A stretch of 64,000 bases of DNA from a virus (lineage: Duplodnaviria; Heunggongvirae; Uroviricota; Caudoviricetes): IMG/VR virus record IMGVR_UViG_3300013902_000267; one strand, given 5' to 3'. Each line of letters opens with the position of its first letter. Position 1 is the first letter of the stretch. This document shows, one piece after another, positions 32,780-34,816 of this stretch. The position numbers were made by a program, and so were the translations under genes. Below the pieces are notes generated by a model. The model made no database searches. It saw only the letters and a list, made by a program, of their open reading frames with translations, and was not told the origin of the DNA.

Positions 32780-34816
32780 TTACTTTTCAATCATCTTAAT
32801 AGATCTCTTAACGAATTTCGCTAAATCTTCACCTTGAAGCAAACCATACTGCAACAATGCAATATCAATCAACTCGTGAATATGATTATCTGTATGTGCA
32901 TGATTATTGATGATTTCTTTCTTCTTCTCTAGGACTTTATCAAGTTCTTCCTTAATAGGTTTCTTTGCATCATCATTTTCTGCGTTTTCAAGGCGTGAAT
33001 TAATGTCTTTAACTTGTTCATTAATTTCATTAATTGCAGGTCCAATTTCTTTTTCTGCAATCTTAATAATTTTCTTAACAACCTTTGAATCTGCATTAAT
33101 TACAAATTTAATATTTGCATTATCCTCAAGATACATACCAGCATTATTAAGCATAGACATTTCTTTCATACGACGGAAGAACTCATCTGCGATAATAGTA
33201 ATAGGCAAAGCATCCTTGCCATCTTGCTTAACCTGGAATTGATGTGTAATCTTAGGAAGATTCAAATCAATACAATCAAACAAAGAAATAAGCATACTAA
33301 TAATATTATCAGAAATTGGTTTAACTTTCTTTGTATCATCTTCTTTCTGAATAAGTTCCTCTGGTACTGCAGAGTCAATTCTCTTAAATGTTACATTCTT
33401 ATCCTGAAGTTTCATCTCGAATGTATGAACTTCAAATGCACCATATTGACTATTAAACAACAAGATGTTATATCCATATTCCTTCAATGCTTCAATATAT
33501 GTATATTGTGTAGCAGTATCATATGTATAAAGATATACAATCTTTCCATTCTTATCTTTCTGTGTCTCTAATACCTTATCATAATATTCATCAAAAGTAT
33601 ACATCTTATTATCTGTATCAACAAGAAGAATAATATCCTTTGCCTTGTCAAAAATATTAGGCTCCGTTACAACACCAAGGTTAATAAATGTTTTAATCGT
33701 CTCCCATTTCTTTTCATATGTTTCACGATCTTTCTTCATAAGAGTTCTCAATGAACTCATTACCTTATTTGTAATATGTGAACTAATCTTCTTAACATTC
33801 GCATCATTCTGAAGAACTGATCTTGAAACATTCAAAGGAATATCAGGGGAATCAATCACACCATGAAGAAGACTCAAATAATCTGGCAATACACCATCAA
33901 CATCATCTGTAACGAATACGCGGTTACAATACAAATTCAAATGTCTACGTTCAAAAATAGGATGTTTTTGATCGAATGCTGGGAAATAAAGAATACCCTT
34001 AAATGTAAATGGTGTATCAATATTAATATGAATCCAGAAAAGAGGGTCAGGTCTACCAGGAAATGTATCCTTATAAAACTTAATATAATCTTCATCTTTA
34101 AGTTCTGATGCAGACTTCAACCACAATGGTTCATCTCTTGTAATCAAATTTTCTGTAGGCTCTGGATATGTAACTTCACCTGTAGACGCATCTGTTGTAG
34201 GTGCAGGAATATCTTTAAGATAAATCTTTACAGGAAGATATTCAGCATATTTCTTAAGAAGTTCAGAAAGTTTTGAATTATTTACATATTCCTTATACTC
34301 ATCAGAAATATGCATAATTACATCTGTACCAACAGTTTCTTTATCATCATCTACAAGAGTAAATTCTGTTGTTCCTTCACAAGTCCAACGACATGCTGTT
34401 GAACCTTCCTTATAACTCTTTGTGACAATCTCAACCTTTGAACTCACCATGAAACTTGAATAGAATCCAAGTCCAAAATGTCCAATAATCTGAGTATCTT
34501 TATATTTCTCAAGAAAATCATTAGCACCCGAAAATGCAATCTGATTAATATACTTCTCTACTTCATCAGCAGTCATACCGATACCCATATCAGATACAGT
34601 AATAGTATTATCTTCATGATTAATAGATACTGTAACTTTCAAATCATCGGGATTTGCATTATACTCATTTGCGCTAATAACCTTAACAAGTTTCTCTGTT
34701 GCATCAACTGCATTACTAACAATCTCACGGATAAAAATATCCTGATCGTTGTACATGAACTTTTTTATCAATGGAAAAATATCCTAACTAGTAACTCCAA
34801 TATTACCTTTTTGCAT
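32780..34816 (-). CDS. htpG: Hsp90-family chaperone (HtpG), 678 aa, N-terminus extended through a TAG codon
   Basis: [27 protein letters not shown] and ~660 aa of colinear Hsp90 layout. The true start is ATG 34816 ([10 protein letters not shown](Q)[14 protein letters not shown]...). The ORF track starts at an internal Met after a TAG. Confidence 0.8.

What the first reader, a model, noticed from the sequence alone, without database searches (positions are those of the whole stretch)
32780..34816. Phage-encoded Hsp90 (HtpG) translated through a TAG
A complete 678-aa HtpG homolog (GHKL ATPase motifs, middle and C-terminal domains) is rare in phages. Its true start lies upstream of a TAG codon, so it is expressed only when TAG is decoded. 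It could chaperone large virion or replication proteins, or buffer the proteome burden of recoding.
Basis: partly seen in the sequence, partly recalled or inferred. Interest (0 to 1): 0.65.

Follow-up and report, generated by a model that had tools for sequence, protein, structure and literature searches.

The report
Megaphage Hsp90 gene with early TAG
The window is part of the published Prevotella megaphage Lak-B, and the flagged gene is a real, intact Hsp90-type chaperone (HtpG) whose eleventh codon is a TAG read as glutamine; this is unusual cargo for a phage, but public records already annotate it and the recoding is known.

Summary
A 678-codon gene lies on the minus strand at 32780-34816, with ATG at 34816-34814, one in-frame TAG at codon 11 (34786-34784) and a TAA stop. 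It passes NCBI's HtpG equivalog threshold, keeps every catalytic motif and folds like full-length Hsp90.

The window is 100% identical to Prevotella phage Lak-B2/B7. In Lak phages TAG=Gln (code 15) is already published. A 90% identical Lak orthologue is annotated "Chaperone protein HtpG" in GenBank. The finding as written is therefore already known at database level, but none of the four Lak papers or the stop-codon-recoding preprint that I text-searched mentions HtpG, Hsp90 or chaperones.

New here:
- The gene is fixed across a whole Lak-like clade. NJ bootstrap is 100/100, LakA/LakB dN/dS is 0.095, and the closest cellular HtpG is 43-48% identical (Bacteroidales).
- It sits in a conserved TelA–HtpG–SPFH block.
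- No PHROG family corresponds to it.
- TAG codons cluster near 5' ends, both in phage htpG lineages and in this window's sparsely recoded genes (OR 8.5, p=7e-6).

That bias suggests the early TAG is a translational gate. Expression timing and clients remain inferred.

The parts
32780..34816 (-). htpG coding sequence: 678 codons plus a TAA stop, one in-frame TAG
   Evidence: It is 99.9% identical by tblastn to Lak-B2/B4/B7 (99.6-99.7% to the other Lak-B records), the only difference in the closest ones being the TAG position.
34814..34816 (-). ATG start codon
   Evidence: The N-terminal [10 protein letters not shown] is conserved with Bacteroidales HtpG and with phage relatives. The upstream sequence diverges and carries stop codons in Lak-A.
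34784..34786 (-). In-frame TAG at codon 11, read as Gln under code 15
   Evidence: TAG sits at this codon in all Lak-A/B/C-type loci and in L005 and L156. Lineage L002 has CAG (Gln) here, other phage relatives have K or T, and Bacteroidales have E.
34202..34816 (-). N-terminal GHKL ATPase domain (about aa 1-205). It holds E31 (34724-34726), N35 (34712-34714), D76 (34589-34591) and the lid motif GHFGLGFYS, aa 112-120 (34457-34483).
   Evidence: Residue-by-residue alignment to E. coli HtpG E34/N38/D80. These columns are invariant in alignment A1.
33332..34144 (-). Middle domain (about aa 225-495) with catalytic Arg R332 in PLNVSRS (33821-33823)
   Evidence: Aligned to E. coli HtpG R336. Invariant in A1. 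Pfam HSP90 covers 219-587.
32783..33319 (-). C-terminal (dimerisation) domain, about aa 500-678, ending ...LLQYGLLQGEDLAKFVKRSIKMIEK with no MEEVD motif
   Evidence: hhalign to a 624-aa HtpG reaches residue 586. L654, L655, G658, L660, G662 and F668 are invariant with Bacteroidales HtpG. Full-length fold match.
34894..34924 (-). Terminator-like hairpin (13-bp stem plus T-run) closing the upstream gene; it marks the 5' boundary of the htpG transcription unit
   Evidence: An equivalent hairpin is present upstream of Lak-A htpG.
34817..34893 (-). 77-nt AT-rich leader and putative promoter region of htpG
   Evidence: Inference from the flanking terminator-like hairpins. No promoter was demonstrated.
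32739..32770 (-). Terminator-like hairpin (13-bp stem plus T-run) 10 nt after the htpG stop codon
   Evidence: The region holds 4 terminator-like sites against 0.6 expected from shuffles.
36439..37560 (-). TelA-family gene, a conserved neighbour of htpG (no TAG)
   Evidence: Pfam TelA 1.2e-68 and PHROG 5890. TelA lies next to or near htpG in L002, L005, L153, L156 and L014.
32419..32670 (-). Small hydrophobic ORF (83 aa) between htpG and the SPFH gene
   Evidence: A small ORF occupies the same position in L154 and L156. No family hit.
31599..32393 (-). SPFH/Band 7 lipoprotein gene, a conserved downstream neighbour (no TAG)
   Evidence: Pfam Band_7 8.4e-24 and PHROG 200. Same position in L154 and L156.

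Best explanation
This is a functional, vertically inherited Hsp90-family chaperone gene (htpG) of the Lak megaphages.

Origin. It was captured long ago from a Bacteroidota host lineage; its closest cellular relatives today are Bacteroidales HtpG. It has since been kept under strong purifying selection throughout a Lak-like clade.

Gene organisation. It forms its own transcription unit inside a conserved, otherwise TAG-free block of host-like stress and physiology genes (TelA, SPFH/Band 7, CNNM, phosphoesterases).

Protein. All residues needed for the Hsp90 ATPase cycle are present: the ATP-binding GHKL pocket, the lid, the catalytic Glu, the middle-domain Arg and the C-terminal dimerisation domain. 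The protein most likely acts as an ATP-driven dimeric clamp that matures or holds partly folded clients during a long, protein-heavy infection.

Translation. Codon 11 is UAG, so ribosomes using the host's standard code release a 10-residue peptide. Full-length HtpG is made only once the phage's tRNA(CUA) inserts Gln. I infer that the 5'-proximal UAG is a cheap translational gate that delays HtpG synthesis until after the code switch.

Shown here: identity, integrity, clade-wide conservation, synteny, TAG=Gln at conserved Gln columns, and the 5' bias of TAG.
Inferred: ATPase and chaperone activity, timing, the gate function and the clients.
For: Identity and integrity:
- (HtpG equivalog 560.6 bits against 371; full-length fold match).
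- E31, N35, D38, D76, G112-G117 and R332 are invariant.

Really phage-borne:
- 100% identity to Lak-B2/B7 over 12 kb.
- Gene GC is 31.5%, against 38-54% for Bacteroidales htpG loci.

Selection: LakA/LakB dN/dS is 0.095 at dS 0.77.

Clade structure:
- Lak-like htpG is monophyletic, 100/100 NJ bootstraps, with a phage-like sister (L153) also at 100/100.
- The whole clade collapses into one 50%-identity cluster. The next representatives are 48% identical or less.
- The best 80 cellular genome hits are 43-47% identical. Most are labelled Bacteroidales or Bacteroidota; a few MAG records carry other or no taxon labels.

Synteny: TelA, HtpG and SPFH are neighbours across lineages.

Monocistronic unit: terminator-like hairpins flank the gene on both sides.

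TAG = Gln:
- CAG sits at codon 11 in L002.
- TAG replaces conserved Gln at columns 25, 41, 92 and 336 in other lineages.
- Code 15, tRNA(CUA) and RF2 are published for these genomes (PMC6784885, PMC8346664).

Gate idea:
- In phage htpG, TAG sites are 5, 11, 25, 41, 44 and 88, against only 336 and 607 further in. Only 17% of Gln-type codons lie in the first 90 codons.
- Of 15 window genes whose N-termini are validated against Lak-A, 11 carry a TAG in codons 2-25.
- In genes with three or fewer TAGs, the odds ratio for codons 2-25 is 8.5, p=6.6e-6.
- Ordinary CAG/CAA frequency at N-termini is normal, so the early TAGs are extra.
Against: - There are no expression, proteomic or biochemical data.
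- No TAG-suppressor tRNA lies in this 64-kb window. Its existence rests on the published genome analyses.
- The gene sits in a TAG-free, non-structural block, not in the structural or lysis modules where the published timing model places recoded genes.
- Many Lak-like htpG genes have K or T at codon 11. At least two lineages (L002, L153) have no TAG in the gene at all, so a gate is not obligatory.
- Retention of TAG at codon 11 across lineages is not statistically distinguishable from ordinary synonymous-codon persistence.
- Several htpG loci used in the 5'-bias count were chosen because their proteins looked N-terminally truncated (L154-L156) or had Q at position 11 (L002, L005). That is an ascertainment bias. 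The unbiased subset is small: L030, L012-14 and L032/33 full-length, plus L056 and L063 partial.
- The structure model has low confidence in residues 1-23, in the lid (94-116) and in 281-341.
- The tree is distance-based only.
Confidence: 0.62

Rival explanations
1. The HtpG is real and functional, but the TAG at codon 11 has no regulatory meaning. In a genome that reads TAG as Gln during most of its translation, C-to-T drift at a tolerant N-terminal position simply turned a Gln (or Lys/Glu) codon into TAG, and it persists neutrally.
For: - Column 11 is variable: E in bacteria; K, T or Q in phage relatives.
- Lineages without any TAG in htpG exist (L002, L153).
- Persistence of TAG11 is compatible with the turnover seen at other Gln codons.
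- The genome is 26-30% GC, which favours C-to-T change.
Against: - TAGs in htpG lineages and in sparsely recoded window genes are strongly concentrated in the first 25-90 codons.
- Ordinary Gln codons show no such N-terminal excess, in TAG-free genes or in TAG-containing genes.
- Early TAGs turn over in position between Lak-A and Lak-B, yet keep reappearing near the 5' end.
Confidence: 0.3
2. The phage HtpG is chiefly a host-manipulation or counter-defence factor, not a general folding helper. It would replace, titrate or out-compete host HtpG and its DnaK partnership. It could thereby stabilise particular phage proteins or disable host systems that depend on HtpG. From my own knowledge, E. 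coli Cas3 needs HtpG.
For: - The gene lies among host-like stress genes (TelA, SPFH, CNNM), not among structural genes.
- It has diverged to 43-48% identity from every cellular HtpG while keeping the ATPase core, which would fit altered client or partner specificity.
- A paper on other large phages proposes that phage-encoded heat-shock proteins may counter defences (PMC12619734).
Against: - Nothing in the sequence shows a dominant-negative design. The catalytic residues and the dimerisation region are all intact.
- No defence or anti-defence gene was identified next to it. The only PADLOC-type signal I saw was a sub-threshold GHKL similarity to MzaB (18.9 bits against 850).
Confidence: 0.15
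3. The gene is not genuinely phage-borne. It would be a bacterial fragment mis-assembled into the contig, or a decaying passenger gene.
For: - HtpG is a typical cellular gene.
- Several other 'phage' database hits look like cellular sequence rather than phage genes: short contigs and prophage edges (rows H16-H35).
Against: - The same gene occupies the same place in nine Lak-B, five Lak-A and one Lak-C complete genomes and in many independent metagenome contigs.
- Its GC content is phage-like.
- It contains a TAG sense codon that a standard-code bacterial gene could not carry.
- dN/dS is 0.095.
- No cellular genome holds a relative above 47% identity.
Confidence: 0.01

Closest known systems
HtpG of Bacteroidales (Prevotella, Segatella, Bacteroides, Phocaeicola; NCBIfam NF003555 'molecular chaperone HtpG')
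   Same: - Same three-domain layout and length class (about 680 aa, the long Bacteroidota type).
- Same N-terminus (MQKGNIGVT.).
- Same catalytic and lid motifs and the same C-terminal helices.
- No MEEVD tail.
   Different: - Only 43-48% identical.
- The phage clade lacks about 11 residues of the C-terminal helical insertion.
- It has a different, slightly longer segment after the N-domain (PAPTTDASTGEVTYPEP).
- Its lid segment is 2 residues shorter.
- It is encoded in a 31% GC phage gene with a TAG sense codon.
GenBank WQJ54299.1, 'MAG: Chaperone protein HtpG [Vetruanivirus porcinprimi / phage Lak_Megaphage_RVC_AP1_GC26]'
   Same: This is the orthologous gene in another Lak megaphage. It falls in the same 90%-identity cluster as P0004, is 679 aa long, and was translated through the TAG under code 15.
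   Different: It exists only as a database annotation line. The Lak taxonomy paper and its supplement held here contain no mention of HtpG, Hsp90 or chaperones.
E. coli HtpG (PDB 2IOP, 2IOQ, 1Y4S), the mechanistic reference for bacterial Hsp90
   Same: Same fold and same catalytic residues: E34/N38/D80/R336 correspond to E31/N35/D76/R332.
   Different: About 30% identity. E. coli HtpG is 624 aa and lacks the Bacteroidota-type C-terminal helical insertion.
Other phage-encoded chaperones: T4 gp31 co-chaperonin, phage EL GroEL-like protein, RB43 J-domain protein, DnaK/DnaJ of 'moraphages' (PMC12619734). The first three are from my own knowledge.
   Same: A phage carries its own component of the cellular folding machinery. 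In moraphages it was also acquired from Bacteroidota hosts.
   Different: The chaperone class differs: Hsp90 rather than Hsp60/10, Hsp70 or Hsp40. PHROGs v4 contains no Hsp90/HtpG family.
Stop-codon-recoded late genes of code-15 phages (model of Borges et al., preprint 10.1101/2021.08.26.457843; Lak: PMC6784885)
   Same: An in-frame TAG blocks translation of the full product until the phage suppressor tRNA acts.
   Different: The published model concerns structural and lysis genes with many TAGs. Here a non-structural gene in a TAG-free block carries one TAG, placed at codon 11. The preprint's text contains no occurrence of 'N-termin' or 'chaperon'.

Membership tests
Hsp90/HtpG family | Curated whole-protein HMM threshold for HtpG | tested here: met
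   NCBIfam NF003555 equivalog scores 560.6 bits (cut-off 371), covering residues 2-676 and profile 1-614/614. Pfam HSP90 scores 146.5 bits (cut-off 24.4).
Hsp90/HtpG family | GHKL (Bergerat) ATP-binding N-domain: catalytic Glu and Mg-binding Asn in E-x-x-x-N-A-x-D, and the adenine-binding Asp in D-x-G-x-G | tested here: met
   [11 protein letters not shown] gives E31, N35 and D38. SDMGIGM gives D76. These align to E. coli HtpG E34, N38, D41 and D80 and are invariant in 21 sequences.
Hsp90/HtpG family | ATP lid with glycine-rich hinge (G-x-x-G-x-G) | tested here: met
   GHFGLGFYS at 112-120 aligns to GQFGVGFYS of E. coli HtpG. The lid segment is shorter than in E. coli, and 2 residues shorter than in Bacteroidales. 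It is modelled with low confidence.
Hsp90/HtpG family | Middle-domain catalytic-loop arginine that contacts the ATP gamma-phosphate (E. coli R336; yeast R380, the latter from my own knowledge) | tested here: met
   R332 in PLNVSRS aligns to R336 in PLNVSRE and is invariant.
Hsp90/HtpG family | C-terminal dimerisation domain, giving the three-domain N-M-C architecture | tested here: met
   Profile alignment to a 624-aa HtpG covers 11-586. The model aligns to full-length Hsp90/HtpG chains over about 700 columns, TM about 0.6. The C-terminal helices are conserved with Bacteroidales HtpG. Dimer formation itself was not tested.
Hsp90/HtpG family | ATP hydrolysis and client remodelling (with DnaK) | not testable with these tools
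   Needs purified protein or genetics.
Code-15 (TAG=Gln) recoded phage gene | In-frame TAG inside a homology-validated reading frame | tested here: met
   TAG at codon 11 has conserved HtpG sequence on both sides.
Code-15 (TAG=Gln) recoded phage gene | TAG positions align with Gln in homologues | tested here: met
   Codon 11 is CAG in L002. TAG occupies conserved Gln columns 25, 41, 92 and 336 in other phage htpG lineages. In Lak-A/B comparisons of other genes, TAG aligns with Q and also with K, S, H, T or D at variable sites.
Code-15 (TAG=Gln) recoded phage gene | Phage-encoded suppressor tRNA with a CUA anticodon (and RF2) | tested here: inconclusive
   No such tRNA was recognised in the 64-kb window. 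It holds tRNA-Gln(CUG), tRNA-Lys(UUU) and one atypical tRNA-like gene with an ambiguous anticodon. Both are reported for the complete Lak genomes in PMC6784885 and PMC8346664.
Code-15 (TAG=Gln) recoded phage gene | Peptide evidence for Gln at the TAG | not testable with these tools
   Needs metaproteomics. The target peptide is GNIGVTSQDIFPLIK.
Recoding-timed 'late' gene (Borges et al. model) | Located in an alternatively coded structural or lysis module | tested here: not met
   Apart from htpG's own TAG, the called ORFs from 29039 to 40698 contain no in-frame TAG. The neighbours are TelA, SPFH, CNNM and phosphoesterases.
Recoding-timed 'late' gene (Borges et al. model) | Product appears only after the code switch | not testable with these tools
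   No time-resolved data exist for an uncultured phage.

The most novel reading that the evidence does not exclude
In Lak megaphages a TAG placed within the first ~25 (up to ~90) codons is a selected, position-flexible translational gate. It is used by many genes that are otherwise written in standard code, htpG among them. Before the code switch such genes cost the cell only a short peptide. After the switch they are turned on together. On this reading the conserved TelA–HtpG–SPFH block would be a phage-encoded proteostasis and membrane-stress module, deliberately held back until the suppressor tRNA is active, and HtpG would be the first bacteriophage Hsp90 with a defined place in an infection programme.
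Probability: 0.35. Interest if true: 0.65.

Novelty: already known. Interest (0 to 1): 0.4.

Why it matters
Hsp90 is needed by many eukaryotic viruses, but they borrow it from the host (my own knowledge). A bacteriophage lineage that has carried its own Hsp90 under strong purifying selection suggests that megaphage infections strain host proteostasis. It also offers a compact, divergent HtpG whose clients could be found by pull-down.

The more useful lead is the 5' placement of TAG. If it is general, it turns the idea of stop-codon recoding as a timer into something directly testable with reporter constructs. It would also give annotators a rule: sparsely recoded genes often begin upstream of an early TAG, so code-11 gene callers truncate them. 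The 658-aa M21-initiated versions of this protein in public databases are an example.

Tried and rejected
- **Suppressor tRNA in the window.** None was recognised. An atypical tRNA-like gene at 62092-62187 gave ambiguous anticodon calls, so I make no claim about it.
- **Downstream start (TTG16 or ATG21).** Rejected as the main start, because residues 1-10 are conserved with Bacteroidales and with all phage relatives.
- **Contamination or chimeric assembly.** Rejected.
- **Pseudogene.** Rejected (dN/dS 0.095).
- **Conservation of TAG at codon 11 as proof of selection.** Inconclusive. Other Gln codons keep the same codon at similar rates.
- **Literature.** Searches for phage-encoded HtpG/Hsp90 found nothing relevant. 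Text searches of the Lak papers and two sets of supplements for HtpG, HSP90, heat shock and chaperone gave zero hits. The journal version of Borges et al. is not held, so I used the preprint.
- **IMG/VR scans.** The single-protein scan found only Lak-A/B types and one distant group. The alignment-based scan added little.
- **A scripting artefact.** An apparent TAG at the ends of the L154-L156 genes came from my script printing TAA as '*'. The genes end in TAA, often doubled or tripled.
- **ORF-extension artefacts.** The TAG at 'codon 3' of the RNA ligase gene (42044-43585) and the TAG at 'codon 43' of 24598-25590 come from extending ORFs upstream. I excluded both from the statistics.
- **Jug phages.** The L012-L014 contigs are not Jug phages, since the Jug paper reports no alternative code.
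Full report
**What is there**

On the minus strand, 32780-34816 encodes 678 codons. The ATG is at 34816-34814, a single in-frame TAG sits at codon 11 (34786-34784), and the stop is TAA. With Gln at the TAG, the protein gives these matches:
- Pfam HSP90 (1.7e-42) and the GHKL ATPase families.
- NCBI's HtpG equivalog model, 560.6 bits against a cut-off of 371, over the whole length.
- E. coli HtpG structures at about 1e-67.

The residue-level alignment to E. coli HtpG places E31, N35, D38, D76, the lid motif GHFGLGFYS and R332 on E34, N38, D41, D80, GQFGVGFYS and R336. All are invariant in an alignment of 16 phage (or phage-like) and 5 Bacteroidaceae-type sequences. A profile alignment to a 624-aa HtpG runs from residue 11 to 586. 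An AlphaFold model (mean pLDDT 75) aligns to full-length Hsp90/HtpG chains over about 700 columns.

**Where it comes from**

The window is 100.0% identical over 12 kb to Prevotella phage Lak-B2 and Lak-B7, and 83% identical to Lak-A and Lak-C. For these megaphages the TAG=Gln reassignment (code 15), a tRNA with a CTA anticodon and a phage RF2 are published (PMC6784885, PMC8346664).

The window shows the recoding plainly. ORF 16336-19425 has 19 in-frame TAGs, and 25 of the 67 ORFs of at least 100 aa contain TAG. No TAG-suppressor tRNA was recognised inside the window itself.

**Is the start really upstream of the TAG?**

Yes. [22 protein letters not shown] matches the N-terminus of Bacteroidales HtpG ([20 protein letters not shown]) and of every phage relative. 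Lak-A keeps the same ATG, the same ten codons and the same TAG, while the sequence upstream diverges and contains stops.

Gene callers using the standard code produce a 658-aa version starting at M21. That version is present in public collections.

**What amino acid is the TAG?**

At codon 11 one related lineage (L002, 66% identical) has CAG. Other lineages have TAG at the conserved Gln columns 25, 41, 92 and 336. This is direct support for Gln within this family. Column 11 itself is variable (E in bacteria; K, T or Q in phages), so the identity of the residue there is probably not critical.

**How rare is it, and how old?**

- Among 50,697 phage records, only the 15 Lak genomes carry a close full-length copy. 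Four short 'Bacteriophage sp.' contigs from human faeces cover at least 80% of the protein at 36-46% identity. The other hits are partial matches on short contigs, prophage edges or likely cellular sequence.
- PHROGs v4 has no Hsp90 family.
- In metagenomes there is a large clade of relatives 57-90% identical, many on contigs of 230-550 kb. The whole clade collapses into one 50%-identity cluster, and the next representatives are 48% identical or less.
- The best 80 hits in 185,579 species genomes are 43-47% identical. Most are labelled Bacteroidales or other Bacteroidota; a few MAG records carry Oscillospiraceae, Oscillibacter or Lachnospiraceae labels, or none.
- A neighbour-joining tree with 100 bootstraps recovers the Lak-like clade (100/100) and a phage-like sister lineage, L153 (100/100). 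Both sit inside the long Bacteroidota type of HtpG but are not nested within Prevotella.
- LakA/LakB dN/dS is 0.095 at dS 0.77.
- The gene's GC content is 31.5%, against 38-54% for bacterial loci.

The gene is therefore an old, fixed, selected component of these phages, not a recent pickup or contamination.

**Context**

Terminator-like hairpins (13-bp stems followed by T-runs) lie 78 nt upstream of the ATG and 10 nt after the stop, so htpG looks monocistronic.

Its neighbours are TelA, two small unknown genes, a small hydrophobic ORF, an SPFH/Band 7 lipoprotein, a CNNM/CBS transporter and two metallophosphoesterases. TelA and SPFH keep their places next to htpG in divergent lineages. The same holds in the sister lineage L153.

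A separate TAG-recoded group of IMG/VR contigs (L012-L014, 145-395 kb, 25% GC) also has TelA next to htpG. Its htpG is only 43% identical (46-47% over the full length in my own alignment) and branches elsewhere in the tree.

Apart from htpG's own TAG, the called ORFs from 29039 to 40698 are TAG-free.

**The early TAG**

Across phage htpG lineages the TAG sites are 5, 11, 25, 41 (at least three times independently), 44 and 88. Further in there are only 336 and 607. Only 17% of Gln-type codons lie in the first 90 codons. Some of these loci were picked because of their N-terminal features, so I treat this as suggestive.

I then tested the window. Alignment to Lak-A validated the N-termini of 15 TAG-containing genes and exposed two ORF-extension artefacts. 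The results are:
- 11 of the 15 genes carry a TAG in codons 2-25.
- TAG density is 3.3 per 100 codons in codons 2-25, against about 1.0 elsewhere (p=0.001).
- In the 11 genes with three or fewer TAGs, 10 of 24 TAGs lie in codons 2-25 (odds ratio 8.5, p=6.6e-6).
- Ordinary CAG/CAA frequency at N-termini is normal in both TAG-free and TAG-containing genes, so the early TAGs are additional.
- The early TAGs change position between Lak-A and Lak-B but stay near the 5' end.

The recoding preprint I could read contains no occurrence of 'N-termin'.

**Most likely mechanism**

The protein is an ATP-driven Hsp90 clamp made by the phage (identity shown, activity inferred). The full-length product requires UAG suppression, which follows from the sequence. 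The 5' UAG most likely delays its synthesis until the phage's suppressor tRNA is active, at the cost of only a 10-residue peptete-length product beforehand (inferred from the positional bias).

The clients are unknown. The neighbourhood points to a stress and proteostasis role rather than a dedicated capsid chaperone.

The main rival reading is that this particular TAG is neutral. Several relatives lack it, and its persistence is not statistically remarkable.

**Novelty**

The genome, its genetic code and the general timing hypothesis are published. An orthologue is annotated 'Chaperone protein HtpG' in GenBank. The finding as written is therefore already known at database level.

I found no paper that discusses a phage Hsp90. 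Text searches of four Lak papers and the stop-codon-recoding preprint for chaperone, Hsp90, heat-shock and (in most) HtpG terms gave nothing, and neither did two supplement sets.

What I add:
- Clade-wide conservation of the gene.
- The TelA–HtpG–SPFH linkage.
- The 5' TAG bias.

Noticed in passing
window-wide; validated genes starting at 10270, 11862, 12399, 14390, 23567, 27783, 32780, 43934, 44492, 50135, 52835: In-frame TAG codons are concentrated in codons 2-25 of genes whose N-termini are confirmed by the Lak-A orthologue. 11 of 15 such genes have an early TAG. In genes with three or fewer TAGs the odds ratio is 8.5 (p=6.6e-6). The early TAG moves between Lak-A and Lak-B but stays near the 5' end.
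   Followed up: partly
window 62092-62187 (-): A 96-nt tRNA-like gene lies directly downstream of tRNA-Lys(UUU). Rfam scores it as tRNA at 45 bits, and default ARAGORN misses it. It has a long extra arm (6-bp stem, 14-nt loop containing UUCUAGG) and an odd anticodon loop (UAUGAUG). Relaxed ARAGORN gives an unconvincing Asn(GUU) call. Its decoding identity is unresolved.
   Followed up: partly
window 23567-28901 (-): The anaerobic ribonucleotide reductase gene nrdD appears interrupted in Lak-B. The ATP-cone and N-terminal part lie at 27783-28901. In Lak-A the reading frame continues directly into the part that lies at 24598-25590 in Lak-B. Between them sit a TAG-containing ORF with no Lak-A counterpart (26779-27726) and, further on, an ORF at 23567-24463 whose N-terminus reads like a GIY-YIG nuclease motif (my reading of the sequence, not a database hit). 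This suggests a mobile insertion (intron, intein or homing endonuclease).
   Followed up: partly
L012, L013, L014 (IMG/VR contigs of 145-395 kb, 25% GC): A second group of TAG-recoded large viral contigs carries an htpG only 43% identical to the Lak gene, with TAGs at codons 5, 41 and 88. A TelA gene lies immediately downstream (40% identical to the window's TelA). In the NJ tree this htpG does not join the Lak clade, so it is either an independent capture or a very divergent relative.
   Followed up: partly
window 34925-35495 (-): This is a 570-nt stretch without an ORF, upstream of the htpG unit. It contains an imperfect direct repeat, GGAATTGAAAATGAGATGATAAT / GGAGTTGAAAATGAGATGAAAAT, about 70 nt apart (read). 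No Rfam family matches it.
   Followed up: no
window-wide: The base after a sense TAG is A in 32 of 64 cases, against 41 of 128 after CAG/CAA. The base after genuine TAA/TGA stops is T in 41 of 67 cases and almost never G or C. This may reflect context selection for read-through versus termination. The htpG TAG is followed by G.
   Followed up: no
L154, L155, L156, L002 (ends of htpG): Several Lak-like htpG genes end in two or three consecutive TAA codons. The Lak-B gene has a single TAA.
   Followed up: no
window 40811-41974 (-): A 387-aa ORF with 7 in-frame TAGs sits inside the otherwise TAG-poor block and has no orthologue at the corresponding place in Lak-A. It may be a mobile element gene. 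Its family was not determined.
   Followed up: no
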